Below, in pieces: positions 25,049-64,000 of a DNA stretch of 64,000 nt. Within the stretch, counting starts at the first letter, position 1. Each line of letters begins with the position of its first letter. The stretch is from Paraspadella gotoi (Eukaryota > Animalia > Chaetognatha). The translations under genes and the position numbers were made by a program. Where the stretch lies: contig CM119271.1 of assembly GCA_051294375.1 (NCBI GenBank), positions 9,501,308 through 9,565,307 on the forward strand, read 5' to 3'. The notes beneath the pieces were generated by a model that was given only the letters and a program-made list of their open reading frames with translations, searched no databases and was not told the DNA's origin.

Positions 25049-25126
<78 letters not shown>

Positions 25127-25161
25127 TTCTCTCCAACACGCAAAGGAATCTCGTTGTCTCT

Positions 25162-25186: not shown

Positions 25187-25645
25187 TTTTCAGTTTAGTG
25201 GTTTTTTTTTTTAGAAAGAAAAAAAAATTCAACGATAACCGCGAAATTAATTTTTTTGAAAAGTTTGTGCAGTTTATATATAAATATTAAATATATATAT
25301 CCGCCCCCTCCTCAGTGCGTTGATATGAGATGACGTAATATTTTTGTTTTAATAGCAGATAATACGATTATGTAATTTGTATACTCGTGAGCTGACGAAA
25401 AAAAAATCGATATTTGGTAAATAAAAAAAAAAGTTAAACAAGTATCCGGATCAGCGCGACAAAGTATAACAAAGTTTTGTTTTTTTTTTTACATTTAAAT
25501 ATTTTTTTCCGTGACGAACATATTATCGAATTATTTGAAACGATAATATATTTTAATGATAATATATATTAATCATTATTACAACAATATGTTCCCTTTT
25601 TCTTTTCCCCCTCCAGCGACATCGTCTCACAGAATCGTGGCCAAG

Positions 25646-34735
<9,090 letters not shown>

Positions 34736-38487: not shown

Positions 38488-41258
38488 CCCCCCCTCTCTT
38501 TCACCTCCAACGAAAACGGCACGGCCTCGTCCAACAGCAACGCCTTGTTGAATCCCATCGCCGCCAGCGTCACCCAGAGGTCGTCGTCGGCGTCGCCGCC
38601 ATCTTCCTCCTCCGCCGCCGCAGCCGCCGCGTCCTCCGCTTCCATGCGGTGCAGCTGCGCGAAGCCGCGCCGCGTGATTTCTCCCGCGGCGTCGAGATGA
38701 ACGTTGTCCTCGACGACGCGCCACTCGGCGTCGGTGATGGATTCACCGGAGGTTCGGACGTTGAAGAGGGAAAACTCGGATCTGAGAAAAAGACGATTGA
38801 TTGATTGATTGATAGAATGATTGGATTGAGAGATTTTGATTGTCCGAGGGACTTATTTGATTTGTTGAATAAATAATTGATAAATTTATTTGGTTAATTT
38901 TATTGGTTAATTAATTGTATAGTGGAGTGTCAGTTCGATAGTTTAAAAAGATTGATTGATTTAAAAACGAATGATTGGTTGTTTTATTCATTGATTGGAT
39001 TAATAATTGATTAATGATCGTTCGGTTGATTCATGAACGATGGGTAGATTTCTTTCTTTCTTTCTTTTTTTCTTTTTTTTCTCTCTTCCCTCTGCCCATC
39101 CCTTCCCCCCGGTCAACCTAGACAGCGTCCCGTTCCCGTCCAAATCGCTGAGATGAAAGATGTCGTCGAGGGCGTCGACGAACGGTTTGGCGAGACTCAC
39201 GTTTCCGTCTCGATCTTGTCGGGTCAACTTGATGTCGGCCTTGGGCTGAGCCTTTCGGGCTTGGAGCCGACAGCCCGAGGTTGCTGAGAAGAAAAAGAAA
39301 CAAGAGGGGTGATTCGACGAATGATTAATAAATAAATAAAATCAAGCAATCATTCGGTCAATTAATCAATCAATAAATCAATCAATCAATCAATCCATTA
39401 ATTGCAATCTATATGAATCAATCTATTTCCGTCAATGAATTATCAATCATTCGATTAATCGACCAATCAAACTGACAAACAAACTCAATCAATAGATAAA
39501 TCTTAATTTTCACCAATCAAATAAATCAACTTAATCATCGATTTTAATCTTCATCGATCAATGAAATAATCAATGCATAAATCAATCACTCAATCCAACC
39601 ATCTCACCAAATCGAATCACTCGCCCTCATTTCACTTCCCACTCACCCGGAACGAGTCTGTAAAACCCCTGCGTCCAGATCGCATTTCGCGTGATATTTT
39701 CCCGTCGCGTCGCGATGCTCGGTGAAAGTCACGAGTTGATGCAGTTTCGTCGTCGTGCCGTCGTCGTCGTCGTTATCGTCGTCGTCGCCGCGTCGCATGA
39801 CGTAGACGACGACGTCGACGGGCGCCTTGGGGTCGGTGTCCATCAGCTCGTGGGAAGGGCCTTCCCAAAGCTGTAGAGAGAGCAAATTTAACCGTTGAAT
39901 GAGAAAGATTTTCTTTTTTTTATAAAGTTTTTCTTTTTAAATGTTTCGAGATCTGACGCTGGCCAAATCCGCGAGAGCTCAAGCAGAAGGGCACTTTTTG
40001 TACGACAGCGATCCATATTTGTTTCTTAGTCTCTCAGCTTTATTTTAAACATTCTTATTTCAAACGCTCTGAAGAAGGTTTAAAATTAAACCGAAACATT
40101 TTCGTCGTGTTTAGATGATTACTAAAATACGATTTGTATTTACTTCCCCAACAACTTTAATCTCATACCACAATCCTCAACCCAAACCCCAACCCCAACC
40201 CATAATCTCTAACCTCAACTGTTGACAATCTCAAAGACTTTAAATATACCGATGCGTAATATCATTAATCATTGTTCATTTTATTTGTATTTACTTCTAT
40301 TACAGTTTCCCTTTCAGCTCTGTGAGAATCCTGTGATCGTTATCATAGAAAGTACGTGTTCGAGTGTGAGATTTAATCTAGGTTGGCGTCTTCGTTCTCT
40401 TGTGTTATTCATATTCACAGATCCTACACAGTGGGCTGCATTGTGGTCGACCGTGCCGTCCCGTGTGGTTAACTGACATTGTGGTCTACGCGTTAGAGGG
40501 TCTCGTGCTTCTCAAGCCCGGCCGAAGCCCTCCGGCATCGCCCACAACAATCCCCCTCTAACAGTTGTGCACTCAACTCCTAATTTAATCTTTAATTAAA
40601 AAAAAAAAAACAACTCAATTTTAGAATTCATTGGGTAAAATGTTCATCCAAAACTTTTCCAATTTAACTTTTCATCTCCCACGACCCGATCCTGAACAAC
40701 TCCCTTCCAACCTGCACGGTGATCCAAACGTTGGAAGGATCCTCCAGTTTGAGGACGAAGTGATGCGAGGAGTGTCGCCCGTCCTCGTCGACAAAGACGA
40801 CGCCGCGAGACTTGGTCGACGCCCAATCCTTGAGACGTCGGGGCGCCGGCGCTTTGCGGTTTAAGGACGCCACGGCGGGTTTCATCTGGTGGAGGGAATG
40901 GAGGGAAAGGTTGCTGCAATCAATCAATCAATCAAGACATTTATCAATCAATCAATCAAGAAATTTATCAATCAATCAATCAATCAATAAAAAGGTTTAT
41001 CAATGAATAAATCAATCAATCAAGAAATCTATCAATCAATTAACCAATAACCGATCATTCTTTTAATCTTAAAATTAATCAATCGATCGTTTAACAAGTC
41101 AATCAATCAATCATTAATGAAAGTAATACAAATCGATCAATCAATTAATCATTCGGTCAATCAATAAATCAATAATTATTAAATCAATCATTCAATCAAT
41201 AAAAAACCCAACCAAGAATCAACCAAGCGATGAGAAAAACAAAAGCCAACAATCGATA

Positions 41259-41302
<44 letters not shown>

Positions 41303-44300
41303 CCTTGGATTTCTCCTCCTCTTCCTCCTTGGCCGTCGTCTTCGTCTTCGGACTCCTCGGCGTCGACGGCGAATCCGTCCTCTCCTCTCTCTCCCTCTCT
41401 CTCCTCTCCTTCCTCCTTTCCTCCCTCTCCCTACTCCTCTNNNNNNNNNNGGAAAAGAGAAGATAGAGATAGAGCTCGTGGTAGCAGAGATTATTCTCCA
41501 AGATCCCGCGACTCATCTGTTTCTTCCAACTCCAGTAGTCGTGACAACCGACGTGGTCGTGATAATCGTCGATCTTGGGGACGAAGTGGCTATAGAGATA
41601 GTAGTAGTTACGATAGCCGCGACAGTCGCAGCCGTGATAATTACGACCGCGACAGGAATCGCCGCTATAGCCGATTTGGCGATCGCGATCGCAATAGGCC
41701 TCGCGATAGCCGCCGTAGTGACCGACAGGATTATCGTAAAGGAAATCGCGATATTCGCAACAACGATCGCGATAGACGTAATCGTGACAGATACCGGGTA
41801 GCCAATACTTCGGATGAAGACAGTGGTGAAAACCAAAGTGAAGAAGAAGCTGTCAGGAAATTTCTGAGTGACCGGAGGAAAGCCAAAAAGGCAGCAAAGA
41901 AGAACCCTCCTCCATCCGAAACGTCATCAGAAAACTAAGGAGCGATCCTGCTATGGGTCAAGCAGAGGTCGAAGTTGATGAGACCCTAGACGTAAGACCT
42001 AAGTGGAAAGCAGAGTTCATGATAAGAGTCGATGGGAAAAAAGTCGCCACCTTAGGCGATACTGGGTGTACTAAAAGTTGCATTAGTGAAGAATTCTTAA
42101 GAGACAATCCTGCTATTAAAGATCGCAGCTTTCGCCCCTTTTCCTCTAAGGGCAAAGCCATTAATGGAACTCGTGTTCTTACAGTTGGTAAAGTTAATGT
42201 AAAGTTTAGAATAGACAATACTTACCTTAGAATGAACTGTAGAGTAGTTAAAGGCCTAGTCCAGCCAATTATCCTTGGCTGGGACTTTTTCTGTAAATAT
42301 TCAGCATCATTATGCCCTTCTGAAGGACGACTCAGGTTTCTCGGAAACCAGTCAGTCTCATTAATAGAGGATTCCCATCGCATTATTGGATGCTATTATC
42401 AAGTGCCGGAAGACACGTTATCCCGGCTCTTATCAAGATTCATCTGATGCCGAGCTCAAGCTCGACAGTGACCTGCTCCACGAGCAACAAAAACAATTGT
42501 CACTGACCCATTTATAAATCATGGAGGTCATGTGTGGGCTTGTAGAGCATGTGCGTATGTTGATGAGGGCAGATTCATGACTGAACTCATCAATTGTAGT
42601 CCAGTTAGCATGAAATTGGAGGCTGGACATATCCTTGGATACGCCGAGTTTACGGATGATGAGACGTTTGATAACTTTTCTGTGGAAACTGATATGCTTT
42701 GCTCTTACTCAAGTGGAGATTCCGCTTACGAATCTGGCGAAGAAGAGCAAACTGGAATCGAAAGTGACTTAGAAGAGGTTGAAGTGGATCCTCCTCAGGA
42801 TTCTGTTAAAGGAAAAGCAGAAGCTTCACCTAAAGCCTCACCCAAGGTGGAAGACAATATTCCACCAGGCGCTAAAAAGTTGTCTATAGAATATAAGGGC
42901 ATGGCTAAGGAGGCTCTCCCCTACAAAGACAAACTTAAACACCTCCTTGAAGTTAAGCATGAGAAGGCATTCTCTAAACATAATAGGGATTATGGAAGGA
43001 CAAACTTAATACAATACCGAGCCAATCTCAAAGATAGAGATGCTCCACCTATTGCCGTCGCCCCATTATCGCACAAGACCAGAGATGCGTGATGTGATTA
43101 TAACAAGCAAGCTTCGAGATGATGCTGATGGCTTATTAGTCATTCGCAGCCATATTCAGCTCCTATCTTTGCTGTAGAATGAAATCTGGTGGTTGGAGAT
43201 TCTCACCGATTTTAGAAGAGTAAGAAAGGTGCAACAAGGTGGTCTACCCCTTCCAAGGATGAAGATTCATTCAGCGCCTCGACAACCCTAAAATCTTCAC
43301 TCTCTCTGACTAACAAAAGGTTCTGCGCAGATTCCTATCACACCTGAGACCGCAAATTTTTTTGCTTTCTCAAGAATCAATGCATTTGGAATACCAAGTA
43401 GCACCAATGGGTGCCAAAAATCCCAAGCTGCCTTAGCTCACTCATGCAGCTCGTGCTGCGTGGGTTGCCCCCCAACATTATCAGCTATATGGATGAATTT
43501 TGGTTGCAGACAACAACATGGAGGATCACCTCAAACACCTGATCAGGTGCTGACGCCTTGGAAGGTGCTTGGCTCTAAGCTCAACCCTTCAAAGTGCAAA
43601 TTGCGCAGGATCTGTGGTATGTCTTGGACATAAACTCTCAAGAGGATTGCCCCGGATCCTGCCAATGTGAAAAAATCCGTTCATGGAAAGCTCCCGAAAA
43701 TGTCAAACGCCTCAAAACATTCCTTGCTAACGGATTATACCGCCATTAGTAAGAGCGATACAGCAAAATTGCTCTGCCACTTCTCGATCTCACCCATGAT
43801 GGGTGTGAATGGTCTTGGAAAGAGACATCAAAAGGCATTTGAACAACTCACGACTATATTTTGATCTCAGATCAAATCATGTCTTATCCCGATTTTGAAA
43901 AACCCTTTATTGTTAAAAGTGATGCCTCACTTCTGGCTGTTGGCTACGTTCTAACCCAGAAGATAAACGGCAAGGAAAAAGTCATTTCTTATGGTTCAAA
44001 GAAATTGTCAAAGCCTCAACAAAAATGGTCCACCTATGATCGCGAATTTTTTGCCCTTTTATGCGCAATTCGCGCTAATTCCCATTACTTGAGACATGCG
44101 CCATTTATTGCTATAACAGACCATAGGCCCTTACTTTCTTGGAAGAAAGTAGATCCCAAGAAGGACGCCACTGGAAGAAGGACCAGATGGGCTATTGAGC
44201 TTGATCAATACGAATTCGAGCTTTGACATAAACAAGGCAAAATACACTCTGACGCAGATGCGATGAGTAGGAGAGGTGAAGAAGATGAAGACCCTTGCGA

Positions 44301-47300
44301 AGAAGACGATTATGCCCTAGGTGAATATGACAACGAGTGGGCTCTTTTAGGCATTGATGCAATAGATGAATCCAATGCCGTCACGCTTAATGCCGAAAGC
44401 TCTCGCCTAAAGCAAAAGCAAGAAGCCGATTCTATCATATCTGAAGTTATGGAATTCGTCAAGATGAGAAGAAGACCACCAAAATCTTTTCCTGAAAAGT
44501 GGTTCTTAAAGAACTTCAACAGATTCATCATGCTTAAAGGCGCTTTGTACCGCAAAGGCTTCAATAAAGGAATCCATTCTCCTGTGCTGCAAGCTGTATT
44601 ACCCGACAGCCTTGTACAAGAAGTCCTTCAGGATTCTCATGGTTCAATGATGTCTGGACATCCAAGCAATGCCAAGATGCAAGATAAAATCAAACGATAT
44701 GCAATCTGGCCTACTATCGGCCGAGATGTTTCAGAATTTACCAAAACCTGTGCAGTTTGTGACAAATTACGTGAACCACAACCAAAGGTTAAAACGATGT
44801 TACAACCTATAATCGCCGAAAACGTGTTCGACCACGTGATCTGTGATTTGGTGCAACTGCCAGTTGCCCCTGGAAACTTCAAACATGTCCTAGTATTCAA
44901 AGATGTGTTTTCTGGATATATCAAATTATACAAACTCAAAAACAAAAACTCAATTGGGATTGCAAAAGCGTTCGAGAACCTAGTCTGCTTCGCAGGCCCG
45001 CCCAAACGCTTGACATCAGATAATGGTGGCGAGTTTGTCTCCGAGGTGATGGATGCTACTTGCAAGGTCCTCGGCACAAAGAAAAGGACAAGTGTCACAT
45101 ATCGACCACAATCTCAAGGCAATGTCGAGAGACAGAACCGAACTTCATTAAAAGACCTTACCAAACGGCTTCAGCAGTATGGTAAGTCTTGGACAGATCA
45201 TTTGCCTTATGTTGAATGGATATAATACACACCAATGCTAAAAAGAATGAACACCTTCTTCTCTTCTTTGGAAGACCACCTCCTTGCCACAATTATCTAT
45301 TGGTGGCGAAGTTAAAGTTAAACATAGAACTTTAATGATATTCAAAATATGCGAAAGAAGGGAACAAGTTAAGAGAAAGCTTCAAAAGAGAAGAAAAGAA
45401 GACAAAAAAGAAGAAGATATACAATAGGAGAAAGCTAAAGGCTCTCACCTTGAAGTTGGAGATAGAGTGTATGAACGTGTCCCAGACGAAAGGCGTAATA
45501 AGCTTGAGCCAAGATGGCGTGGCCCATTAATCGTCAAAGAAAGATGCACTAGTCCTAAAGGAAGCCCAGGAACCTCCTATGTTTGTGAAGATAACATTGG
45601 AAAGAAAGTGCGTAGAAATCGATGCAAGATAAAATCAAACGATATGCAATCTGGCCTACTATCGCCGAGATGTTTCAGAATTACCAAAACCTGTGCAGTT
45701 TGTGACAAATTACGTGAACCACAACCAAAGGTTAAAACGATGTTGCAACCTATAATCGCCGAAAACCGTGTTCGACCACGTGATCTGTTGATTTGGTGCA
45801 ACTGCCAGTGCCCCTGGAAACTTCAAACATGTCCTGTATTCAAAGATGTGTTTTCTGGATATATCAAATTATACAAACTCAAAAACAAAAACTCAATTGG
45901 GATTGCAAAAAGCGTTCGAGAACCTAGTCTGCTTCGCAGGCCCGCCCAAACGCTTGACATCAGATAATGGTGGCGAGTTTGTCTCCGAGGTGATGGATGC
46001 TACTTGCAAGGTCTCGGCACAAAGAAAAGGACAAGTGTCGCATATCGACCACAACTTCAAGGCAATGTCGAGGACAGAACCGAACTTCATAAAAGATCTT
46101 ACCAAACGTTCTTAACAGTATTGGTAAGTCTTGGAAGATCATTTGCCTTATGTTGAATGGACCTATAATACTACACCAATTGCAAAAAATGATATGAACA
46201 CCTTCTTACTCTTCTTTGGAAGACCACCTCCTTTTGCCACAATTATCTATTGGTGGCGAAGTATAAGTAAACATAGAACTTTAAATGAGTATGTCCAAAA
46301 AATATGCGAAGAAGGCAGAACAAGTTAAGGAAGAAGCATCGTCAAAAGAGAAGAAAAGAAGAAACAAAGAAGAAGAGTATCACAATAGAAAAGCTAAAGG
46401 CTCTCACCTTGAAGTTGGAGAAGAGTGGTATGAACGTAGTCCCAGACGAAAGGCGTAATAAACTGGAGCCAAGATGGCGTGGCCATTAATACGTTTAAAG
46501 AAAGATGCACTAATCCTCAGAGGAAGCCCAGGAACCTCCTATGTTTGTGAAGACTAATTGGAAAGAAAGTGCGTAGAAATCGGGACAAAATTAAAAATTT
46601 GTAATGCGAAATATAATGAGTTATGAAAGTCCCACTTCCAAAGGAAGAACCTAAATTCCCAGTCAGTTGGTTTTGTATTAATGCATCAAACAAGAGCTCA
46701 GATATCTTACCCAGCTGAGCCATCTGCTGAAGGTACAATCCACAGATGAGATGGTCTCAGCTTCAGAGTTCAACTTCAAGCTGCAACAGCGAGTTACGTT
46801 GGACTTCTGCCCGATAAGAAACCTGAACAAGATATCGGATCCCGTTCAGAAAGCCATCCTCCAGAGGATTCTATTATAATACTCTTGGAAGTATTATTAC
46901 TACCCCATGAAGACGGGAAAACGCCGAGCTTCGTTAGAAAACCCAAAGACGTAAGTAGCTCATGCTAAAAGACGCTTCTCTCTACACTACACAAAACTGA
47001 GAGTAGAGATCGCAAAACTAAAAGTACTACAGAAGCTAGCCAAATTATTCGTAACAGTATGACTAAGATTCGAAATGCTTCCGAAACATAATTCCTCGAT
47101 TCTCAGGAAACAATTACTATATATTCCTCTAGAAATCGAACAGGATCATTTGATGAAGTTTTTTCCCCTTCACTGAAAACGATCTGGTGAATGGAGGAGT
47201 TACCACTCCAGAAAACTATCTAACAGAAGTTACCCAATAAGAATGACTCAACCACCCCCTCACCCTTAGTACAAAGTATGTTACAAAGGAAACCTAAATC

Positions 47301-50300
47301 AGGTAGTTCCGAAAGCATTGCAACAAGACAAAGCGGATGAGATCAGATTTCAAACCTAAAAGGGCGGGCCAAAAAAAACTTTNNNNNNNNNNNNNNNNNN
47401 NNNNNNNGTTAACAATTAAAAATTGTTATGCGAAATATAATGAGTTTATGAAAGTACCCACTTCCAAAAGGAAGAACCTAAATTCCCAGTCAGTTGGTTT
47501 TGTATTAATGCATCAAACAAGAGCTCAGATATTCTTACACCAGCTGAGCCATCTGCTGAAGGTACAATCCAATGGCAGAGCTGAGATGCCCTTATAAGGA
47601 ATAGGCCTCTGTTCTGTCTCCGTCTCCCTTCGTTCTCGCTTTCTTCTCTCTCGTCTTCGAAATTCTCAGTCGCTCACGTACATTCCCGGATAAATAACAC
47701 TCTCTCAAAAATATTCTCTCCCTTTACTATTTTTTCTGTCTCTCTCCTCTCTCTCTCTTAGCATCTTGACGTTTAGACCATAAATTGAAATTAAGAAAGG
47801 CGTCGGGATTCTTGTTGTCGTTGTTGTGCGATGACTACAAAAAATGTGGGACTTTTAGAGAGGCCGTTGCCGCGCGTCGGGACAACAAGTAAGGAGCTGA
47901 TTGGGGCGGCCGCGTCTCTGGACGCGGACCGTCCGCCAATTCGGGAGACTTGGGGCGATTTTCTCGACCCCTCCACATGAGCAAAGATATAAAGCACAAC
48001 TCTAGCATCAGAGAGGAACCTTATAATAATTATTTTTAGTCTTCCAATTATTTTTGCCTATATAATTTTGTGAAGTGTCTTTTAACACTTGTAAAGGAAT
48101 AAACTATTTCATGCCTCCTATTTATGTTGAACCAAAACCTTTCTTATTATTATTCACAATTTAAACGAAAGATAAGTAAGGACGAGCAAGAGAGAAAGAA
48201 TTCGATTTAGCGAGCCAGTGGAGTCAGCCTAACCAAAGAAACCCTTTAAAGCAACTTTAGGCGACAGTTGTCCCCTTGCTGCAATTTGATGCTACAAATG
48301 GGGTGGCAGCGGTGGGATAACTGTTGCTGCAAGACGGTTGCTGCAAGCCTGACTCTAGGGCTCGTTGAACTCTCTCTCCGAAGCATTGTGAAGAAGACGG
48401 CGATTTTCAACGCGACGACGATCGAACAATTGGGGTTTGAAGCCCTGAACGACGACTTCTTACAAGTTTCAGCCGCCCTCACTCTTGCGGCGCAAATCGC
48501 CTTCGTCATCGCCGTTATTGTTTTCGCGCACCGACGTCATCGACGAACATGAACGGAACCGAAAACCACCAGGGCGGAAACTCCGTCGTCGACGGATTTC
48601 GCCGCCGCCCCGCACGCCTCCGACTCAATTGCCGCCAGCCACGCGGAGACGATGATGACTCTTCTGGACAAATGATGAGCAGATGATGCAGATGCAACAA
48701 CACAGGTGGCAGTTGCAGCTACGATGCAGGTATTTGTTAAGGAGGAGAACTCCCGCTCGCCTTCATATTCGTTCCGACGGTTCACCCTTTTTCGCTGCCC
48801 GAGCGAGGGGGCCCCCGTCCCAGGTTCGGTTCGACGGGTTTTTTCCGTCGTTCATTCCGCGTCGCCGGCGGCGGACCGTTCTGCCGCCCCGCGCCGTCAT
48901 TTCAGCGGTCAATGGCCCCAGCTCGGCCGATTGTTGGCCCGTTAAGCTCTCACTCCCTCTTTCCGCGTGCTTCCGGATCCGACGAATCCGGCTACGACGA
49001 GGCCGACGCCGTCGGCCACGACGAGATCGACGCGCCCACCACGACGCCCACGACGAGTACGGCCGCTACGACTACGACCACTTCCGTTCGTACACCCATG
49101 CGCGGCGGCAGCCGCCGCCGCAGCCGACGATGGATTGACGACGATGTGGAATCCGGTCGTCGTTTCCTGTGGGGAGTCTCTGGGGCGCTTCACATACGCA
49201 GCGCCGCTCCGACCAACTTTTTTCCAAAGTACGAGGATGGAGATTCCTTGAGGAGCTTCGCTTTCGCCGTTGAGGAGGAGGTGATGACGAAGTGAGATGC
49301 CGCGTAAGGTTTGGCGAGGAAAGTTTGTAGCGCTACTAAAAGGAGTTTCGCGCACCATGGGCTTACCAACTTCATTCAAGCTAGGAAGGCCGCAGGGATG
49401 GACGCCACGGTTACGAGAGCGTGCGCGACCACTCTTCGACAGGTGGAAACTTACTTGATGAAGCAGCTCGTCATGAGCTGGAAAGCGCGGTGAAGAAGAA
49501 GGAAGAAAACTATGCTTATTATGCCGCACGTTCTCCAAAACTTCTCGCCGTCCGCGCCTATGGACGTGAGTATTGATAAACTCACAAAATCGAAAACCAA
49601 GGTGCAGGAAGTCTTCATGAGGATTTGAGAGGACCTCTGGGACACAAAGTAAGGGAGATGTTGCCTGAGACTTTGGTCGCGACTATCTCGTTCGCGCGAT
49701 CGTATGAGGACCGCAAGGATACTCGAAGAATCCAAAGCCGTCGTCCACGCCATTGGCTCATCCGGAAGCAGCGCGCCAGCAGCGGCCGCCTCCAAGAGCG
49801 CTGCAGATCGTGTTGCATGCGGCGTCACCAGGGGCATAGAAAGGGATGATTGCTGGAAAATTCACCAAGAAGCGCCCCAAAAATGGAGGACCGCGCTTCA
49901 AGAGATCAACCGCCAACCAAGTAAGGACAGGAAGAAAACCTGGGGAAGGGGGGCAGAAAGAAGGGGACCACGCTCTCCCCCGCCACGTCTCAACCTTCAC
50001 CCTCGTCCCCCGGCCTCATCTTAAACTGAGGCATGGCCGAGCTCGACATCTCCGACGATTCCGACGGGAATGGATCTGCTTCAGGGAAATAGCTTACACA
50101 GTCTCAAGGTTAACCGGAAGTCCAGCGCGCGCCGAGTCATCTACCGTTCTCGCCGCGGCGCCACCGCTTCGCAGCGGGATCTACGAGCACCTGATGACAA
50201 CCGATTCCATTCCTAAGCAGACTGACGAGGACTCGACTCGACAGGGGAAGCGGCCGCCAATTTCCGTCGACGACGCCGTTTCATCGATAGGGAGCGCCCT

Positions 50301-53300
50301 TCAATATCGAGGACGACTATTTACCGGTTGAGATTTTAAATATCCCTGGACCATTTATTCCTGTACAAATTGGCGAATGAAATTTTAAGAGACCATGATC
50401 GATACTGGCAGCGGATCGCTAAATTTACTTTCTATGCACTATTACGGAACCAATTGCATTATTGAATATACCGTTGCGAAGCGAGCAGTATAAGGTCATG
50501 GGAATTGGTGGGGTGATTTAGGGCTGCTAGGCTCTGGTAATATTCGGTTGCAAAATAAATAACACCCCGAGGAGGCATTGTCTTTCACATATACAGGGAG
50601 AAAGGCATTTGTATTTGGGTTTAAAAGGGAATGCAAAGATTTTGACATTATTAGATTACTAAAAAATCAAACGGTACATGTAACGGCATATGGTTAAAAT
50701 TATCGGTGAGAAACGCGGAAAGGGGTAACCGAGTTCGAGTTGCCAGGTAACCACTAAACAAGACTGTATAATCTAAAATTGCATGAGACTGTCGTTATTC
50801 CCGCTATTCGCAAATTAATAACTTTCGTTGATGTCGCCGATGATTCGCCGCCGAGGAAACGCTCGAAATTAGATTGCCAATTCGAGTGTCGCCGCTATGG
50901 AATCATTATTCCGCGTTATGTTTTGTCTCGCCCAATGAAAACCATTCCTGTGTTAAAAAATTAAAAATTGGTTTTGTTCGCCGATGAAACTGTATACGAG
51001 GAAGTTACGAAATGCGGCGTTGGCCAAAACCTTGTATTGTTGCGAAGTGAATGATGATGATGATCCAAGCTGGTTGGATCGATATGAAGGCATTGATGTT
51101 GAAGGTGAAGAGTCGCCTGATGGCATCCTATTGTAATTGATTGATTGATTTTGTCTCATCTGGATGATGAAAAGAAAAATAAGTTTGAGCAGTATTAAGA
51201 CGAAAAATGATCGAGTATTAGCGCGGACAATGGACTTGGCCGCACGTCATGGTTGGATGTAAAAATTGCAATTGCAAAGAAGTGTGACAACGGTAATCGA
51301 TCGCCGCGTCAGTTCCGCTTTAGCCAGCAGAAGGCCTGCGGAAGAGAAGCGCGTGAGCTAAGAACATGGACTCATTCACGCGTTTGTAGTCAAATCTTGC
51401 TACAGAGGCTGGCCGGTATATGTAAGAAACGTGATGAAACATGGCGTCTGTTGCACGGGAATGCACGGCTTCGCCATTGATTACCGGAAACTAAATCCTG
51501 TCTACGGTTCCAGGACGGCCAATGCCTCCGAGAATGGGAGATGTGTTTGACAAATATTTCTGCATGCGTTGGTTTTTTCGAAAATTGATTTAAATTATGG
51601 GTTACATGAAGATTCCAATGTCAACCAGAGTCAGCTCCATTGACATGTTTTGAGATTCCAAAACGCCGGTCAGTACATGTGGACCGTTCTCCCTTCGGCT
51701 TCAAAAGTGGCCGGCCGTATTCACTGAGCTGATGAACTGCCATTGCAATGCGTCTTCAACCTTCTCCACCTGCTCGCCTACCTGACGACATCATTTGTCC
51801 GATCACGAATTCGACGAAACACGTGGTACATTTGGAAGAGGTCTTAACTAGGCTAGAAGTTGCTGCGATTGAAGCCAAGGCTCAAGGTTTAGTCCTGCAA
51901 AAATGAAAATTGAATTATTGGCGTCACGTGATAAACGAGAATGGCATCAAAACCGGATAACCATGAAAACTCAGAGTCTGTCGAAATGGCCAAGCCGGAC
52001 TACGGTAAAAGAGGTTCAGTCGTTCGTTGCTTTTGCAATTTTATCGTAGATTGTTCCGAATTTCTCTGGCATCGCAAAAACCCTCTATGAGCCTTTCCAA
52101 AAAGGACCGGAAGTTCCATTGGAGTGGACGCTTGTCAAAAAAGCATTCGAAGAGCTCAAGAATATAATTGTTCGGGCATCTCGTTCTGGCGTGCCCTGAT
52201 TTTTAATTAAAACTTTCCACCTCGCGACTGACTGGGAGTGCTCTGAAACTCCAGTTACAATCCTGTCTCACAGTCGACGATGCCACAGGTAAGTTAAGGC
52301 CCATCCTTTATGGAAGTAAGGTCCACCACCAGGACCTGATGTGTCGGCTACTACGAGGAAATCGCCTGATCCTCATATTCTAGAGGACGTTTCAAAGTCT
52401 CACACGGCTATGCTAGCGACACATAATTACTTTACTGGCTAAACGCGACTTTATTCTCTATTCAGACAACTTTGCTCTTTTCAAATCTTTGTCTAGTCGC
52501 CGCCGCAAGCGTTCGTCATAAGAACGCCTAGGTAGTTAGCCCAGTGGAGACTTCAAGTCAAGCACTTACCAGGTAAGCAAAAATATTGGGCCTGATTTGT
52601 TGCAGTCGGATTGACTTCGCGCAGAAAGAAACAATTTCCTGTGCCAGACAGGACTGGTCAGATTGTCGGAAGTGTCGCTCAGTAGTAATAGTTGCTCCTG
52701 TTGCAACACGCGCAATGACGCAGCTGCCCAGCTGCAAATCCACATCCGATACTGATCCTGCGATCGGGGGGACGCCTTGATCCAACAGGTCTGCTGAGAG
52801 GAAGTGGAGGCCGTTACAAGAGAGCGCATGGGGACTTTAAGTAAGCTCAAGGCTTGGATAGAGACCGGTTCAACGCCCCGACAGAAAAGAGGCGCGTAAG
52901 GGAAAAGTCCCGCCACTAAGGTCGTTACTCGCAAGTTTCGACCAATTCAAAGTAAAGTAATGACGTAATCGTTCGCAGTTTGGACGGGACAAGGACGGAC
53001 AAGGTAAGAATTTGGCCGTGGTACCTGAGAGTGCAGTTCCGGAATTACTGCGGCTTGCGCACGACAACCAAGTCATTCGGGGGCAGAATAAAACGGTTGA
53101 ATTTCTCCGACGTTCAGATATTACGTTTTCGCGTTGGCCGCCGTCGTCGAAAGGACTGATTCGTTCGTGCGGAATCTGTCAGAGGAAGAAAGCAAACAAA
53201 ACCGTTAAGCCCCGTTGCAACAGATTATTGCAGTTATTTCAATGAAAGAGTTGCATTTGATATTAAAGGCCCATTAAGAGAGACTAACATAAAAAATTCC

Positions 53301-56300
53301 GCTATTATTATTGATTATCACTGATTATTTCAGATCGATTGACTATTCTCGCTGGTTTAAAAGGAAGTTCACAGCAGAAGAAGTACTTACTGCATTGTAT
53401 GAGCATTATATTGATATTTCGGAGTTCCGTTCGCGTCATAGTGATGCGTCACCGACGTTTCACGGCGCCGCCGCGAAAGATTTCTATCATACTCCTCGGC
53501 ATCCACAAAGACGAAGACGGCTCCACTCCATCCAATGGGAGACGATTGGTTGAAAGAACATTCGCCTCCATTTCAGGTTTAGGTAACTGCCATGTTGAGG
53601 AACCGGAATGCTGATGGTGCACCGATTGGACGGCGCTGAATGGGATACACGCCTGAAGAAGGCACAATTGGCAGTTAACGCGGACGCCAAATCTTCACCT
53701 CTTTTTTCTCCTTTCAAAATTCTCACCGGAAGTGAAATGTTGTTCCGATGACGCTTTTTATCCGGTGGAAAAACGCGCGAGAAAAAACTATTGCAGCACC
53801 GTTAGAGGGTTGCAAGACAGGCAATCCGAGAATGTCCACGCCGTAATGGAACTATATATGGGTCATGAGCTGGCGATACAAAAAAGATATTATGATTCTT
53901 CTGTTCTAAAATTCCCTGAGTTTAATATTGGCTGACAAAGTTCTTTATCGAAAAGTTGCTGATAAGCCAGCCCATGAAGCTAAAGCATTGCTCTCCTAAA
54001 ATATTTTGATTCCACTTTTTGAAATTACTAAAAAATTGTCTGATGTTAAATTACGTCATTCGAGACGTAAATGTCCGGAAAGGAACGGGTACAACACGCA
54101 AATCATTTTTGCGCCCAGTCGTAGAGAAAGCCATCACCATGGAAACGGAATTCAACAAGAGGAACCGTTTCGACGACAAAGACCGGAAGGAATTCTGGAT
54201 CGGGACGACGACAGTTGTTGATCATCATTTGAGTGGGAGGCTAGCCCCCCGGGGGGGAAGGGGGTTTTCCGCTAAAAAGACGTTCTACTCGATCGAGGAA
54301 CTTGCCCTCGAAACTAACTGACTTTTATTTGGATGATTCAAGTCGAAGGTTTTGTAAATATGATTTAATATACGCATTAATATTATGACATTATAACAGT
54401 GTTTAATCAATCACAAATAATTTTCTACGTCTGTTTGTTCATTACTACATTTTATCATTTATTCATTATTTTCGTCTCTTGGATTAATACGATTAATTGT
54501 TAGCGCTACGTCTGAGTTCGCAACGAGCAACCAGGATCAGGTGGAACAAAAGAGGCATCGTCCGAGATCTTTCCGTTCCACCGAAGTAGTGGTTCAGCCG
54601 CCTTCGCTGAGTGTCTGGAAGGAGAATGAAAATTATGGTTAGTTCTCTGTCTGTGTAAATCCATTGGAATCAAAGGGATCGATCTACCAAGATGGTTCGG
54701 CTCAGTGGTTGTTTTACTTTTTTATTATTATTCGCTGATTTATTAAAGTCTCCAATTTAAGCTCAAATGTTGGAGTTGAGCGAAATCATTGGATGAGAGG
54801 AAAAAAAATGGAAGAATGATTGTAGTGAATGAATGGGTTCTGATCGATTTCTATCTACGACGAGCTTGAGTTTCTTCCACTTCTGTAGAAAGGAATAATT
54901 TTGCAATTCCTTCTGCTAAGTATTAGGCTCAGTATGTTCCGCGTATTATAGTTATATGTTCCTACGACATTGTTTTAACAAAATTGACACTGACCCATTA
55001 CCTTATGTTAATCCATGGAGTCCCCCTCCTCGAAAGTCGATGTCTTTCGACCCAAATCATACCACGTCGTCGTCATCATCATCATCATCAGCGTCATCCC
55101 GGGCGGCCGCCGGAGAAGATTGGGCCGAGCTGGCGCCCGGCAGAGGACGCCCCCCTCCGAACCAGATCGCTCTGATTGCGGAGAAGAGAAGCCCGAGGCG
55201 ATGATGATGGCCGGGGAGGAAATTTCCTGAGGAGATGACGCGCACGGGGAGAGAGCCGGAACAGGACTGCTCGATCCGGAGATTCCCGGCGCTGACGCCG
55301 ACCCGGAACGGGATTCTCTCCACGACTGGAGAGTCGGGTTTCCGGTCATTCTCTGATCCGGCCGGTGGGAGGATTTTGCCTGGTGATGACATCGTATCGA
55401 GACGATGCATCAAGAGGAGGATCGGGACGCCGCTCTTCGTCGGCGGATCCTCGCGCCGCTGCAACAGGAGAGGAGACCGCCCTGTCCGAGGGAATCCTTC
55501 GGACGTTGGCAAAACACTTGGCGATTTTGCAAGGGTGGAGAGGAGCCATGGCGAGTTCGGTTGAGCGGTGGGAAAAATGCCCCAGACCGAGGCCGCTTTT
55601 GACACAGATGAGTCCTTCCGGAAGTGTAGGGCCGCGGACTGGGAGAGGTAAGACGCAGTGGCACCAGCTGCGCCACGTTGAGACGCCCCCAGCCCGCGTT
55701 AAAATTCACTTCCGTGGAGAACCGGTGCCCGAGGCACCCGCCAGATAGCTGCACACGAGGCGTGCAGCTGTTGGGCCGTGATGACCTCGGAACAACGCGG
55801 CAGCGTTGAAGAACAAGTTTGGGCGAGCCTAAAATGAATAAGTAAAATTATAAACTAAAATTAATTACCATGATCAGTCAAAATCTGCAAATTAATATGC
55901 CCATAATATTGCCAAATAATATTGATTATTACGTTTTAAGTCCTTGTACGCCCTTTGTTATTTCATGTTGTTGAAATAAGTCCAGAGAACTTTATTTAGT
56001 TTTTCCGTTCTATCGCAGTCAGAATAGAACAACGTTTTTCGTGATTACACGATGGGAATTATTATTATGATTTTATTTCGAATACAATGTACATTTAGCC
56101 TTGTATACATTATGTAACGGAAACGAATTCTCGTCAATGATATAAGCAAATTAGGCAATCGACGAAATTCATTTCTGGCAGTGAGATGAATAAATGTTTC
56201 ATTCTTTTGAAATTATTGTTACAAATCATTGTTTAACAGTGTATTTCGTTGCGTCTCCCCTTTTCGTTTGTTATTCAACAACCGATCATAAGTCAAGGAA

Positions 56301-59300
56301 TTATTATTATTTTTTCTATATCCTTCCGGAACCAGTACACATTAATTTATCATAAATCAGGAATTGTGATTTATTTTTCTATATTCCTTCAGGAACCAGT
56401 AGAATTAATTTGATCATACAATATTTACTTTCTTTTTGAAAACTTCTCCGATGATTCAATTCTAAATACGGTTTCCCTAAACTTAGAGTTCGAGGGGCTC
56501 TAGTGGAAACAATGGTCATTTTGTTTACGTTCGAAAAAAAGGTACATTTTTCGAATGAAAATGGTTTATTGATTTACGATCATATTCCTATTATTCCGCA
56601 GTTTCCTTGTAATTACTGGTAACTCGTTCTTATGTGTTACAATGAACTTACTTGATTAAATCCATGATTACCCCAGTGAAGATGGGTAATATCAAAACGA
56701 TTGTCGGGGGAAGAGAATAGAATTAAACGTTTTCGAAAAAATTTAGCGGATGAAAACTATTTGCTCGGACGCGTTGGGAGTTTGCCACAGAAAGTGAAGA
56801 ATTATCGAGAGGTTTAGGGACCGGCGGTAAACGATTATACATTCTAGGCAAGGAAATCTGACTCGAAAGAAGCGCAGGCAGGCATTTATCACCACTAGTG
56901 TAACGGCCAGGCTCGGGTTGAACACGAGAAAGTACGAAGCGTAGACTAAAGTCATAACAAGCGCGGGATAGGGGAGACTAAGGAAGATGAGGACATTTCT
57001 TTTTCTTTGAGGTCGAGTTTAATAAGGATAGGCCTCTGTCTCGTATCTCCGTACCTTCCCCTCGTCTTTCTCGCCTTTCTTCTCTCTCGTCTTCGAAATT
57101 CTTCAGTCGCTCACGTACATCCCGGATTATAACCACTCTTCTCTAAAAATATCTCTCCCTTTTACTATTTTCTGTCTCTCTCTCTCTCTTCCTCTTAGCC
57201 ATCTGACGTTTAAGACCATAAAATTTGAAATTAAGAAATGGCGTCGGATCTTGTTGTCGTTGTTGTTGTCGATTGACGTACAAAAAATGTGGACTTTGAG
57301 AGAGGCGTTGGCCGCGCCAGTCGACAACATGTAAGGAGCTGATTGGGCGACGGCCCGTCTCTGACGCGACCGTCCGCCAATCCAGGGGAACTTGGGCGAT
57401 TCTCGACCCCCTCCACATTGAGCAAAGATATAAAAGCAACAACTCTGAAGCATCAGAGAGAACCTGTATAATAATTATTTTTTAGTCTCCATAATTTTTG
57501 CCTCCATAATAATTTTTGAAGTGTTCTTTAACACATGTAAAGAATAAAACTATTTACTGCCATCCTATTTTATGTTATTCTCTCTCTTACTCCTTTGCTA
57601 GCAAGTACTCCTAAAAACAAGGAGTAATGTGAATTTAGTTAAAATAGTTTTATAGATATTCCACAATCATAGACATAGTCTCAGTTTTTAGAATGAAACA
57701 AAGTAAACACGATCGTAGTATCAAATTTTAAGATTGGATCCAGTTACTACATTTACTACAGTTACTACAATTCAAGCTCAAAACCAAGCTAATTCGCGAA
57801 TCCTTTGACAACAACTACATTGGCCATGTAAGCAAAAGAAGAGAAGATAATTTCACCCATGTATGTATGATTGGTATGCATGACATTACTTTCCTCTCCC
57901 CCTTCTACTTCTCTTTGTTAAATTATGAGTTATTTGTAATTGAATATAGAATCATTTAAGTGAATTAGAATAAATAAAGTTCTATAAATTCTTCTTTTAG
58001 TTATTTCTTGTTTTGGCTTATAAACCAATGCTTTATAGCTTGTTAGGAATTTGCTGTTAGCGATTCTTTTAACAAAATCTTGAGCTACTCAATTTGACTA
58101 AATCAATTTTATATCTATTCTATCTAGTTACAGTAAGTGACTACAATATGGGCAAACGAAAGACAATTACGCAGTGTTTGTATTCACTAGCACCGAACAA
58201 TCGCGAAGAGACGATCCCGCCGGAAGATGATCTCCCGAGATTCCCGCTCGTTCTCCCTCCTCAGGACGATTTACCGAGATTCCCTCCCGTCCTGCCTCCT
58301 CAGATATCGAGTGAGACGAGCCACTCCGATTCGAACATTCCGACCGCTCTCCCATCTGCTCCCACACCTGTTCTTCCATCTGTACCAGATGTGGAAGTAA
58401 GAGAGATTAAACTGCCAGGAGATGTCAACCCAGACACTCTCTATGTGGACATTAAAGATATTCCACCATTCAAGAACAATGCTCCACCGTCAAAAACCAT
58501 AGACAAAGCGCGGTACCTGGAGTATGAGTTCGCCGAAAAGTTAAAGTATCTCAAACTTGAGGAAATGTCGGCGTCGAAAATTATTCATGTTCGCAACACC
58601 CGCGACGACAGAATGGCAGGTGCGCGCTTCGCCTCGCTCCTTGCCAAGTCTGATCGCGATATACTGGTTGGTTTTGACACAGAGGGCAGTTCTGCGACAG
58701 TGCAATTGTCAGCAAAGGTTGGAACTGATGAAGTAAACGTCGTGTATCAACTGAAATCGTCAGTTGCCGAATCGTGTCTTAGTGAGGGAGTCCCCGACAA
58801 TCTGTTCAACATTCTACTGCATGAGAGAATCATCTTTGCAGGCAAGAACGTCAGAGAAGATCTCCTAGAATTGTTTGAGACCTTGTCGATCTCACTCTTC
58901 AAAGCGATAAGGCTAAGATACCTTGAGGTAACGGACCTCTATGGATTTTGTCAGAGCCTTGCTCAAGGACCTCGGGAGGTACGCCGTTTCGTCCAGTCGG
59001 GTCAGTGGGTCCGCGAATTTCAAGTTTCGCTGGCATTCTTTTTCAACTTTGCATTTCGAGATCGATTCTTAGACAAGCGAAGTTTCCATCGAGACCATAC
59101 GTCGGATTTTGCTGAAGAAAGATCCCCGCTGTCCCCACAACATCTCATTTATGCAGCGTTGGATTCCCGCGCTTCGAGGGATGCGGTCGTGGCACTTCTT
59201 GGGATGCTTGGTCTCCGCCCTACTGCATTCGCAAGAGAAGTCGGCGACGACTCCTTTCCGATCAACAACCGTATTCTCGATATCGCTAAGGCCTTCGAGA

Positions 59301-61811
59301 ACGACAGCCCTCGAAACAAACGCGAAGAAACGGGCATTGCAGCGCTCAAACTGTGCCAGGTATTCTTCAAGACGCGGGTAGCCGACGCAGAAAAGGCAGA
59401 GATTGTGCGACGTCTTAGAAAACAGATCGCCGTGATAAAGCTAAAGGAAATACGAACGAAAACCAAAATCGACATCGTTTTCATTGAGGACGATCGCGTA
59501 GACCAGCTTGTCATCACACCTTTCCGCTCCGCGTCCACCATAGAGACAATAGAGGAACCATGCGAGTCCTCTCCGCCGGCCAAGGTCAGAAAGTTTTTAC
59601 CTTCAGCCCCTATAGATGCCTCTTCGGTGTCAACTCCAGAGACTTCGCAGGTCCCTCCTTCGGCCGAAGTGGAATGTGCAACAGATGCGACAATCGCCGG
59701 TCCCACCAAGACTAGACCTGGTGGTAAAAGTACATCGTCCCCGACCTTCGCGGTCTTGTCGCGCGCTACGCGTGAGGCAAAACCGCCCGAAGACTCTGCC
59801 ATTTCTTCTGCCAGAACGTTGACAACCTTGCAGATTGCGGATTTTCAGCGATATCTCAAAAAGAAACGAGAGTTGACGGTGACCAAAACGATAGAAGAAT
59901 GGGTCAAGATTCTTTCTTATATGCCTAAGAGAAAACAGAATAATCGAAGGAAAGCATATCTCCTTGCGCGTACTATGTTCGACTTCTTCCCAACACGTCG
60001 TCTTAACGATTTTGTTACTGCGGTTCTCAAGGAGAAGGCCTTGGGATCAAGTTGCCTTCATTCGCTCGTCCAACTAAAGTATTTTTCATGTTCCTCGCTA
60101 GTCCTATTGGATTACTTCCTCGATAGCGACAGCCGTACTCATACGTTGAAATCGGCTGCGCAAGAGTTCGACCAGGCAGAGATCTCGTCAATAGTTGGAT
60201 TTATTTCTCGCTTCTACAGAAGGAAAGACCTGATAGTGGAAAAACTGCGTTCAACTGGCTTTTACGCGAACATGCACGACATCGACGACTTCAAGGAAAG
60301 GTTTTCTAACTATCGCGTCGGTCGATTCATCAGAACATGTTCAGAGGTTGCCAAGTTACCGCTGTCTCGTCATTATCTCGACATAATCTGCAAGTCGCGC
60401 ACCGATATTCTGGTGGAAGCGTTTCTTCGTGGCGAGATCGAAGAGTTTGACATGTATTTTTCCTGCAGAGCTATTGCAGCCGGAGAGAACCGACTGTTTT
60501 TAACTAGTGTGATGCGCGTGGCTGAGTTCAACTCGCTGCTCGCTTCATTCCTCTTACGGCTTCGTGGAGATCCGGAAAGGTCCTTCCCTCCAGCAGAGCA
60601 CGACGACTTTTCGCCGTCATGCAGAGAACCTTATAATAAAGTTCTCCACGATTTACCCTCGTCATTGAGAGGAAATAGAACAGATGGCATAATAATTAAA
60701 GACATAAACGAGCTCGATAAATTCAAAAGAGCATTCTCCAAATCTGAAGATTACGCTATCGCGTATCATCGACCCTTGCCAGGATTGGAGAAAACAGAAA
60801 TTGATTTCCTATCAATTCTTTGCGACAGAGAAGTCTTTCACTTCGCCCCCGGCAAGAACCGAGCTGTCACCGAGGCTATGATTAGCACACTGAAGCCCTC
60901 GCAGTCCCGCCTCTTCACCTTCAAAAAGGTTCCTTTGTTCGACTTTTTCCGTCGCGAATTTTCGTGGGTCCCCTCTAATTGGGTCGACGCAGAAACCGTC
61001 TGCAAGGAGCGTGGCTGGGAGGCAACCATCAATTTAATTGCGAACAAAATCACGGGAGACGCCTATTGTCCGCGTGGACTCCACTTCCATGGAAGTTCGA
61101 GGCCATCTTCGAATGCCCTCTCCACCGCTCGATTACGACGCTGCTCGTATTCAAGTTTTGCGTTCGCTTCGCTCGTTAAGGACGCGTATTGGTCGGGTCG
61201 ACCAATTTAGAAAGGAGGAAGGATGTTGGAGACAAATTCGTGCGGACATCGAAGGACTCGAGATGAAGAACAATTTGCTACGAACAATTAAGGAACTGTT
61301 CTTCAATAAAAATATAAATAATGATTGCTTTTATTTACCTTATTTGTTATTGTTTACATTTCAGATAAGTGAGTATCGTGCTTTATATGTATAAATGATA
61401 ATGTCAGAATAGTAGAATACACCGTTCTTGGTCAGCGTCTCCCTGTCATATTGTGTGCTTCTCATTCTCATAGATCCATACGATAAGACTATTGCTCTCT
61501 GTCGACTGCGCCGCCCGCTCAGACTTAGTTTGGAGGACGACGTGGGAGACCCCGATGCGATCTCAATGCCACCTGACGTGAGCCACCTTCGCCGCTGGCG
61601 AATCCCATAAATCCGCTTCCAAAGGAGGAGAGGAGGAGGAGGAGGAGGAAGAGGAGGGAGAGTAGGAAGAAGAAGGGTAATATTAAGAACAGTAGGAGTA
61701 AATGAGAGGAAGAAAAAGAGGAAGAAGAAACAGGAAAAATACGAAGAGTAAGGGTAAAATGAAAGAGAGGGGAACGAGAGAAAAAAGAGAGAGAAAGAAA
61801 TGAAGGAGAGG

Positions 61812-63727: not shown

Positions 63728-64000
63728 GGAGTGGGCGTGGCGACCGACTTGCGGCTTTGGTGTGGCTTCGTTCGATTGATTGAGTTTTGTTTGTATTATT
63801 TACTTTTATTATTATTTAGACGGTTGAAACAATGATAGTTTGAAAAATCTCGTCATTATTATTTCAAATTAAATTTTACGCATATATACTTATTTGCGTT
63901 GTAAAACCATAATTTCGATCGAAATATTGTTTAGTTCAGCAATTTTTAAATATTTAGTTTAACACTTTTCGTTCCAGTAATATATTTCAAATTTACTGCC

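What the first reader, a model, noticed from the sequence alone, without database searches (positions are those of the whole stretch)
58094..61623. LTR retrotransposon carrying a ~1000-aa DEDDy 3'-5' exonuclease in the env/ORF3 slot
Seen: an intronless ORF with all five DEDDy residues (GFDTE, REDL, YAALD). It ends about 30 nt before a polypurine tract and a TGTTGG-starting LTR, and lies antisense inside a host intron. Known: this motif style belongs to the WRN-exo/MUT-7(Nibbler, EXD3)/EXD2/RNase D group, and MUT-7/Nibbler act in small-RNA 3' trimming and transposon silencing. DEDDy ORF3s have been reported in bdelloid rotifer LTR retrotransposons, so capture itself has precedent. Inference: this is element cargo, possibly a counter-defence factor against piRNA/siRNA pathways or a replication/proofreading aid. 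The size and domain layout look unusual.
Basis: partly seen in the sequence, partly recalled or inferred. Interest (0 to 1): 0.9.

Follow-up and report, generated by a model that had tools for sequence, protein, structure and literature searches.

The report
Retrotransposon carrying a double exonuclease gene
A long intron-free gene sits just before the end repeat of a jumping gene and likely belongs to it; its protein joins an intact-looking nucleic-acid-trimming enzyme to a predicted disabled second copy of the same fold, a layout shared with an unannotated protein family whose job, possibly blunting the host's small-RNA defence, is untested.

Summary
An intronless 1020-codon ORF (58148-61210) carries D177, E179, D238, Y335 and D339 and runs up to a polypurine tract and a multi-copy LTR. 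Contigs of 3 of 4 laid runs hold most of it nearly unchanged.

New here: the protein has two exonuclease folds. The N-terminal DEDDy domain looks active (profile hit WRN, E 2.7e-5). A linker and a helical domain lead to a second RNase D/WRN/Nibbler-type fold (homolog model pLDDT 92, Z 17-18). That fold lacks the catalytic acids but keeps a C-H-C-H set. There are 132 homolog clusters; none of the 19 looked up is named.

A gypsy-order pol lies upstream, separated by a nested second element. The pol-ORF3 link is inferred (about 0.8); no contig bridges it.

DEDDy ORF3s are known from rotifer elements (PMC5408684); this layout was not found in 7 literature searches. The scan noted other nuclease cargos (RRP6-like, TatD) on other DNA, but not this family by sequence. 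Function is untested. Verdict: new variant of a known kind, interest 0.62.

The parts
41451..41938 (+). Element A: R/S/D-rich tail of the probable gag; the 5' end is lost in the N gap at 41441-41450
   Evidence: the gag label is inferred from position
41872..42444 (+). Element A protease
   Evidence: Pfam Asp_protease_2 E 1.9e-5
43000..43720 (+). Element A reverse transcriptase region, broken into several frames
   Evidence: motifs read by eye across three frames; not scored by Pfam
43843..44223 (+). Element A RNase H
   Evidence: Pfam RT_RNaseH E 1.6e-28
44227..45622 (+). Element A integrase (zinc finger, core, C-terminal part)
   Evidence: Pfam Integrase_H2C2 5.9e-14, rve 6.8e-12, MLVIN_C 4e-4; PFV and Ty3 integrases are the best PDB hits
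45621..47382 (+). Tandem duplicate of the integrase (probably an assembly artefact) and the region after pol, up to the N gap
   Evidence: 92% repeat of 44676-45634; contigs of X1-X3 join 45622 directly to 47411
47592..57576 (+). Element B: a second, higher-copy LTR element with its own degraded gag-pol, nested between pol A and ORF3; LTRs at 47594-48128 and 57022-57576
   Evidence: 84% direct repeat; Integrase_H2C2 E 1e-4; summed depth about 200-1000 against a flank of 14-27 in X1-X3
57577..58147 (+). Spacer before ORF3, shared with sister copies; TATAAA at 57983 and 58019; acceptor-like CAG just before the ATG
   Evidence: the promoter and splice roles are inferred only
58148..61210 (+). ORF3, 1020 aa as written (P0001)
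58565..59227 (+). N-terminal DEDDy exonuclease domain (about aa 140-360) with D177, E179, D238, Y335, D339
   Evidence: profile hits WRN 2.7e-5, EXD2 0.006, Nibbler 0.022; conservation
59498..59815 (+). P/S/T-rich linker, variable in length across homologs
59816..60607 (+). All-helical domain (about aa 557-820), fold not assigned
   Evidence: model of homolog P0010, pLDDT above 90 over this part
60608..61176 (+). Second exonuclease fold without the catalytic acids; C825, H834, C974 plus a family-invariant His that lies past the frame break
61210..61223 (+). Polypurine tract
   Evidence: sequence
61224..61623 (+). 3' LTR of the ORF3-bearing element
   Evidence: loose ends at 61223/61224 and high depth
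62073..62330 (-). Host EF-hand gene exon upstream of the insertion; further exons at about 63500-63760 and 38500-41400. EFCAB7-like by recall, not by a call
   Evidence: translations; weak EF-hand_1 E 0.011 at 39003-39341

Best explanation
The ORF lies in the third-gene slot of an LTR element, likely the gypsy-type element whose pol lies upstream, and encodes a DEDDy domain with all five catalytic residues plus a helical domain and a predicted second, disabled exonuclease fold. Shown: ORF, motifs, PPT, multi-copy LTR, sister copies, homolog family. Predicted: the fold of the C-terminal module (modelled on a homolog) and a zinc site from the C-H-C-H set. Inferred mechanism: the N-terminal domain trims 3' ends, most likely of RNA. 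The helical-plus-dead-fold module holds the substrate or a host RNP, as the Nibbler N-terminal domain and the Maelstrom pseudo-nuclease do. The target I think most likely is host small-RNA (piRNA or siRNA) ends, which would weaken silencing of the element. Odds: cargo of an LTR element 0.9; of this pol 0.8; active-plus-dead layout 0.9; counter-silencing as the job about 0.35.
For: Cargo: the order PR-(RT)-RH-IN upstream on the same strand, then PPT and LTR. Joints of single contigs chain 57802-58008, 58047-59758, 59780-60147 and 60190-60514 at the same depth (97.7 in X1, 46.4 in X2), so diverged sister copies are collinear. Depth of the near-identical pol and of the ORF, relative to flank, is 1.4/1.5, 1.6/1.9, 2.6/2.9 and 0.6/0.3 in X1, X2, X3, X9 (r 0.99, n 4). 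10 of 13 listed in-frame differences between copies are synonymous. Protein: 132 clusters at E 0.001 or better. 12 of 132 hold both modules, always N before C; 9 of these are 1051-1385 aa. D-E-[D/E]-Y-D is present in 33 of 35 rows that cover all five sites. In the C module: Z 18.0 RNase D, 17.8 WRN, 17.3 Nibbler EXO, rmsd 2.7-3.2, 169-180 aligned. There the ExoI D site is D in 19 of 57, the ExoI E site is H in 34 of 57, the last D site is R in 24 and D in 3 of 52, while C, H, C, H hold in 58/58, 57/58, 54/55 and 52/52.
Against: No listed contig bridges pol A to ORF3. The sequence that follows element B's entry point on the left contig (46760-47382) does not reappear after B's 3' LTR, so a deletion or an assembly chimera across a 10-kb repeat lies between them. 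Contig depth is not a copy number and n is 4. The genomic context of the 132 homologs is unknown, and none carries an RT or integrase Pfam hit. The best profile hit is WRN, a DNA exonuclease by recall, and the other hits are weak (E 0.003-1). P0001 itself has no Pfam or NCBIfam hit. The N domain has no confident model (pLDDT 37). The catalytic-site mapping in the C module comes from the alignment, not from a superposition. The window's pol A is broken in several places. Nothing here tests substrate or function.
Confidence: 0.6

Rival explanations
1. Same cargo, different job: the enzyme works on the element's own intermediates, trimming the 3' end of its RNA, removing mismatched cDNA ends for reverse transcriptase, or cleaning cDNA ends before integration.
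For: Top profile and fold hits include WRN, RNase D and Pol I proofreading domains. PMC5408684 and PMC6431247 propose 3'-end processing for rotifer DEDDy ORFs; PMC9587614 proposes degradation of DNA intermediates for the KolobokD DEDDh.
Against: The enzyme is a separate ORF, not part of pol. A large dead second module is more than editing would need (inference). Most gypsy elements replicate without it (own knowledge).
Confidence: 0.3
2. ORF3 and its LTR belong to a different or non-autonomous LTR element; the upstream pol A was joined to them by recombination between two copies of element B or by the assembler.
For: B's two flanks are not contiguous in A; the assembly is error-rich, with N gaps and duplicated stretches; no bridging contig is listed.
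Against: Depth of the near-identical pol and of the ORF co-varies over 4 runs; both have a low-depth own form and higher-depth sister forms; strand and order fit one element.
Confidence: 0.2
3. The protein is a TREX1-like weapon that degrades the cDNA or RNA of competing elements or viruses, favouring the carrier or the host.
For: An active-looking DEDDy site; PMC6338049 argues for antiviral roles of accessory domains (one passage and search listing seen).
Against: No evidence on substrate; a self-sparing mechanism would be needed.
Confidence: 0.12
4. The ORF is a host retrogene or host gene family member that happens to lie before an LTR.
For: The ORF is intact over about 990 codons while the nearby pols are broken; the context of the homologs is unknown.
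Against: It abuts a PPT and LTR exactly; sister copies share spacer, ORF patches and 3' end; none of 36 members listed from 19 clusters has a name or an NCBI/UniRef source.
Confidence: 0.07

Closest known systems
DEDDy ORF3 of bdelloid rotifer Juno and Vesta LTR retrotransposons and Athena/Terminon elements (PMC5408684; parts 1-3 and 5 of 5 read)
   Same: DEDDy-type exonuclease in the ORF3 slot behind a PR-RT-RH-IN pol, catalytic residues intact, function unknown. The DEED variant of that paper occurs in 9 of 35 homologs here, and the paper notes a Cys-His-Cys motif in Vesta2 and Vesta5.
   Different: P0001 has DEDD. The text read describes no 1000-aa protein, helical domain or second dead exonuclease fold. 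Sequence homology could not be tested: the rotifer sequences and the figures were not available.
MUT-7 / Nibbler / EXD3 (PMC11347159; passages)
   Same: DEDDy exonuclease group (profile E 0.022; fold Z 17.3). A helical domain directly before an EXO fold mirrors the NTD-EXO order.
   Different: Here the EXO behind the helical domain is dead and the active EXO comes first; there is no MUT7-C hit; the gene is intronless and element-borne; kinship of the helical domain to the HEAT-like NTD is untested.
WRN exonuclease and EXD2
   Same: Best profile hits of the N domain (E 2.7e-5 and 0.006).
   Different: No helicase; tandem second fold; mobile context.
Pseudo-nucleases of small-RNA and mRNA pathways: Maelstrom (PMC4408791; passages), EXD1, Egalitarian
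   Same: DEDD fold without catalytic acids; Maelstrom has a structural zinc and binds ssRNA; EXD1 and Egalitarian appear among the fold hits (Z 15.4 and 13.1).
   Different: The ligand set is C-H-C-H, not ECHC; the dead fold is fused to an active-looking copy in one chain.
KolobokD DNA transposons with a DEDDh exonuclease (PMC9587614; passages)
   Same: A transposon-encoded DEDD accessory nuclease.
   Different: DNA transposon, DEDDh subfamily.

Membership tests
Ty3/gypsy LTR retrotransposon | pol order PR-RT-RH-IN | tested here: met
   PR, RH and IN by Pfam in this order; RT only by eye, in broken frames
Ty3/gypsy LTR retrotransposon | PPT followed by a TG-starting, dispersed LTR | tested here: met
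Ty3/gypsy LTR retrotransposon | Paired LTRs, PBS and target-site duplication | tested here: inconclusive
   no 5' LTR in the window; the 5' end falls in an N gap; no whole genome is held
Ty3/gypsy LTR retrotransposon | ORF3 and pol on one element | tested here: inconclusive
   order and depth co-variation for; nested element, non-matching flanks and no listed bridging contig against
DEDDy 3'-5' exonucleases (N domain) | ExoI DxE, ExoII D, ExoIII YxxxD | tested here: met
   D177, E179, D238, Y335, D339; 33 of 35 fully covered rows are D-E-[D/E]-Y-D
DEDDy 3'-5' exonucleases (N domain) | RNase D/WRN-like fold | tested here: inconclusive
   profile hit WRN 2.7e-5; weak DNA_pol_A_exo1 hits below cut-off in 2 of 133 proteins scanned; no confident model of this domain
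DEDDy 3'-5' exonucleases (N domain) | Metal-dependent 3'-5' activity | not testable with these tools
   needs an assay
DEDDy 3'-5' exonucleases (C domain) | RNase D/WRN-like fold | tested here: met
   Z 17-18, rmsd 2.7-3.4, 160-181 aligned, on the model of homolog P0010
DEDDy 3'-5' exonucleases (C domain) | Catalytic DEDD-y residues | tested here: not met
   acids are not conserved at the ExoI and ExoIII sites by alignment
MUT-7/Nibbler/EXD3 | N-terminal domain followed by an active EXO | tested here: not met
   the active EXO is N-terminal; the helical domain precedes the dead fold
MUT-7/Nibbler/EXD3 | Helical domain homologous to the HEAT-like NTD | tested here: inconclusive
   fold lists are filled by the exonuclease domain; the domain was not folded alone
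MUT-7/Nibbler/EXD3 | MUT7-C domain (absent in Nibbler) | tested here: not met
   no Pfam hit in P0001 or in 133 homologs
Rotifer Juno/Vesta DEDDy ORF3 | Sequence homology or common clade | not testable with these tools
Rotifer Juno/Vesta DEDDy ORF3 | DEED motif | tested here: not met
   P0001 is DEDD; 9 of 35 homologs are DEED
Rotifer Juno/Vesta DEDDy ORF3 | dUTPase between PR and RT in the carrier | tested here: inconclusive
   a 206-aa frame lies there (42472-43089) without a Pfam hit at E 0.1
Maelstrom | ECHC zinc site on a dead DEDD fold | tested here: inconclusive
   the conserved set is C-H-C-H; geometry not measured; MAEL is not among the listed fold hits

The most novel reading that the evidence does not exclude
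A large, old and unannotated clade of animal gypsy elements encodes a dedicated anti-silencing enzyme: an active DEDDy trimmer tethered to a Nibbler-like helical-plus-dead-nuclease module that mimics the host's piRNA trimming machinery and over-trims or destroys small RNAs. It would be an enzymatic, retrotransposon-encoded suppressor of the piRNA pathway.
Probability: 0.25. Interest if true: 0.9.

Novelty: new variant of a known kind. Interest (0 to 1): 0.62.

Why it matters
Why LTR elements carry nucleases in the env slot has been open since the rotifer report, which lists 3'-end processing and silencing as untested guesses (PMC5408684). This family gives more than 100 diverse sequences with a conserved catalytic set and a separable dead module, so the question becomes directly testable by protein assays. 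If the target is small RNA, it would be a rare case of an animal retrotransposon fighting silencing with an enzyme. An active-plus-dead tandem DEDD layout is also of interest to nuclease biologists, whatever its job.

Tried and rejected
No whole genome is held, so copies could not be counted or dated by LTR pairs. Pfam, NCBIfam and PDB sequence searches with P0001 alone found nothing significant. The single-sequence fold was unusable (pLDDT 37). One alignment of all 133 sequences misplaced the fragments and was dropped; module-wise alignments A2-A4 were used instead. The profile of the C module found nothing in PDB sequences (best E 0.24), and the N and C profiles do not match each other (probability 0.5%). 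Word-based homolog searches: one timed out, two found none; the 'longer' search covered only 1478-4220 aa, so fused forms are not excluded. Context of homologs: viral contigs gave 18 pattern matches and no relative; a motif scan of metagenome contigs gave 16 loci, none with a match beyond the motif itself. The protein atlas did not complete. Complex prediction of the N module with the C module: no answer, score 0.00, alignment not used. No RNA holder is listed. Run X9 covers the ORF only patchily, which is not used as evidence of absence. The Nibbler NTD and MAEL were not among the listed fold hits, which does not exclude them. The tree of 46 N domains is a quick tree without cellular outgroups, so it says nothing on the donor. 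The host gene name could not be tested: two tries failed on reading frame. Figures and alignments of PMC5408684 were not visible and its supplement (a primer table) was not opened; they may bear on how close the rotifer ORF3s are.
Full report
Observation. The window holds a stop-free frame 58073-61210 with ATG at 58148, giving 1020 aa. The best of 200 shuffles gave 209 aa. The motifs GFDTE, REDL and YAALD supply D177, E179, D238, Y335 and D339. Contigs of runs X1, X2 and X3 cover 58018 to about 60850 in one piece with 4 substitutions and no gaps. A purine tract (61210-61223) is followed by TGTTGGAG. Contigs with unlike upstream sequence stop at 61223/61224 in X2, X7 and X9, and summed depth over the LTR is 505-827 in X1 against about 26 in the flank. 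The LTR is therefore dispersed. After about codon 992 the window's frame leaves the family pattern; another frame holds the family's last motif, and contigs show gaps there. The window's copy is broken or mis-assembled at its very end.

Genomic anatomy. Upstream on the same strand lie a probable gag tail, protease, a broken RT region, RNase H and integrase. This is gypsy order; I call it element A. Its 5' end is lost in an N gap and no second LTR copy is in the window. The stretch 45621-46595 repeats the integrase and is skipped by contigs of three runs, which join 45622 to 47411 across the second N gap. Between pol A and the ORF sits a complete second LTR element, B (LTRs 47594-48128 and 57022-57576), at much higher depth. 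B's entry point in A is visible, but the A sequence that should follow it (46760-47382) does not reappear after B. A deletion or an assembly chimera lies there. Minus-strand exons of an EF-hand gene flank the whole; the name EFCAB7 is recalled.

Is the ORF cargo of element A? For: strand and order; PPT and LTR directly behind it; diverged sister contigs collinear through spacer and ORF; near-identical pol and ORF depths relative to flank of 1.4/1.5, 1.6/1.9, 2.6/2.9 and 0.6/0.3 in four runs. The pol values are partly differences of table cells, and the tool warns that depth is not copy number. Of the 13 listed in-frame differences between copies, 10 are synonymous; 83 rows of that table were not shown, so this is a small sample. 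Against: no listed contig bridges pol and ORF, and B's flanks disagree. I put LTR-element cargo at 0.9 and linkage to this pol at 0.8.

The protein family. P0001 has no Pfam, NCBIfam or PDB sequence hit. A full phmmer scan gave 132 clusters at E 0.001 or better, 19-40% identical. By module profiles built largely from these hits, 49 hold only the N module, 71 only the C module and 12 both, always in the order N then C; 9 of the 12 are 1051-1385 aa. Single-module hits are probably often fragments of short contigs (inference). Nineteen clusters were looked up: all 36 listed members come from ENA or Logan assemblies and none is named. Pfam on all 132 plus one member gave two sub-threshold DNA_pol_A_exo1 hits and no RT or integrase. 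Their genomic context could not be fetched.

Domain layout. The N-module profile hits WRN exonuclease (E 2.7e-5), EXD2 (0.006), Nibbler (0.022) and NrnC (0.11). Of 35 rows covering all five sites, 24 are DEDYD, 9 DEEYD and 2 other. The C module was folded on homolog P0010 with 73 sequences (pLDDT 91.9, pTM 0.84): about 260 residues of helices, then an alpha/beta domain. That domain matches RNase D (Z 18.0, rmsd 2.8, 169 aligned), WRN (17.8, 2.7, 174) and Nibbler EXO (17.3, 3.2, 180), tied within 1 Z. Its catalytic sites are not conserved, while Cys, His, Cys and His are nearly invariant (58/58, 57/58, 54/55, 52/52). I read it as a pseudo-nuclease with a likely zinc site. The helical domain was not searched alone and has no assigned fold.

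How it most likely works. Shown: position, motifs, conservation. Predicted: the second fold. Inferred: the N domain is an active 3'-5' exonuclease, and the helical-plus-dead module binds RNA or a host complex and aims it. Precedents are the Nibbler NTD, a HEAT-like RNA-binding scaffold before its EXO (PMC11347159, passages), and Maelstrom, a zinc-bearing dead DEDD fold that binds ssRNA (PMC4408791, passages). My single best guess for the target is host small RNA (about 0.35). Processing of the element's own RNA or cDNA is close behind (about 0.3). No result here separates them.

Comparison with what is known. Rotifer Juno and Vesta elements carry DEDDy ORF3s with a DEED motif and unknown function (PMC5408684, parts 1-3 and 5 of 5 read); later papers cite this case (PMC6431247 and PMC6338049, passages). 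KolobokD DNA transposons carry a DEDDh enzyme (PMC9587614, passages). Seven full-text searches listed no paper whose title, abstract start or read passages describe a tandem active-plus-dead exonuclease ORF3; subscription journals and Repbase were not searched. Homology to the rotifer ORFs is untested and not excluded. It is not a MUT-7/Nibbler member by domain order, though its C module is laid out like one. Earlier scan notes, unchecked here, report RRP6-like, TatD and dead-DEDDh cargos in other genomes; look-ups by sequence found nothing for ORF3 or the integrase.

Verdict. A real feature and a new variant of a known kind: nuclease cargo in the ORF3 slot, with an apparently undescribed double-exonuclease layout and a large unannotated family. 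Interest 0.62. The boldest reading, an enzymatic suppressor of piRNA silencing, has probability about 0.25 and would deserve 0.9.

Noticed in passing
P0013 (565 aa; cluster of 3): A short family variant in which the active DEDDy domain is joined almost directly to the dead exonuclease fold, without linker or helical domain. It suggests the two folds are the core unit.
   Followed up: partly
window 60829-61252: The 3' end of ORF3 is covered by one near-identical contig whose depth equals the sum of the window's form and diverged sister forms (X1: 141.3 against 40.7+97.7; X2: 104.4 against 33.8+46.4+24). Sister ORF3s may be mosaics that share a homogenised 3' end.
   Followed up: partly
window 57956-58071, 58110-58147, 61345-61380: A non-coding block with TATAAA is conserved in sister copies upstream of ORF3. 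An acceptor-like site precedes the ATG, and a donor-like GTGAGT lies in the LTR. ORF3 may be expressed from an internal promoter or a spliced message.
   Followed up: no
window 47592-57576: Element B has LTRs without TG...CA ends as assembled, and a 2.7-kb region after pol with a GC-rich, stop-poor stretch (about 55000-55850) that has no Pfam hit in four frames: a possible accessory or antisense ORF.
   Followed up: partly
window 42472-43089: A 206-aa frame between protease and RT of element A, where rotifer elements carry a dUTPase; no Pfam hit.
   Followed up: partly
window 62480-62760 and 37211-37374: A very high-copy short repeat (summed depth above 80,000 in X1-X3), probably a SINE or MITE.
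   Followed up: no
window 7748-35352: Large nested inverted duplications at 90-93% identity (for example 10538-19498 against 23782-32736): probably haplotypes or mis-assembly, possibly a real palindrome.
   Followed up: no
window 38500-41400, 62073-62330, 63500-63760 (minus strand): Host EF-hand gene, EFCAB7-like by recall, with frame errors in its exons; this shows that the assembly is noisy.
   Followed up: partly
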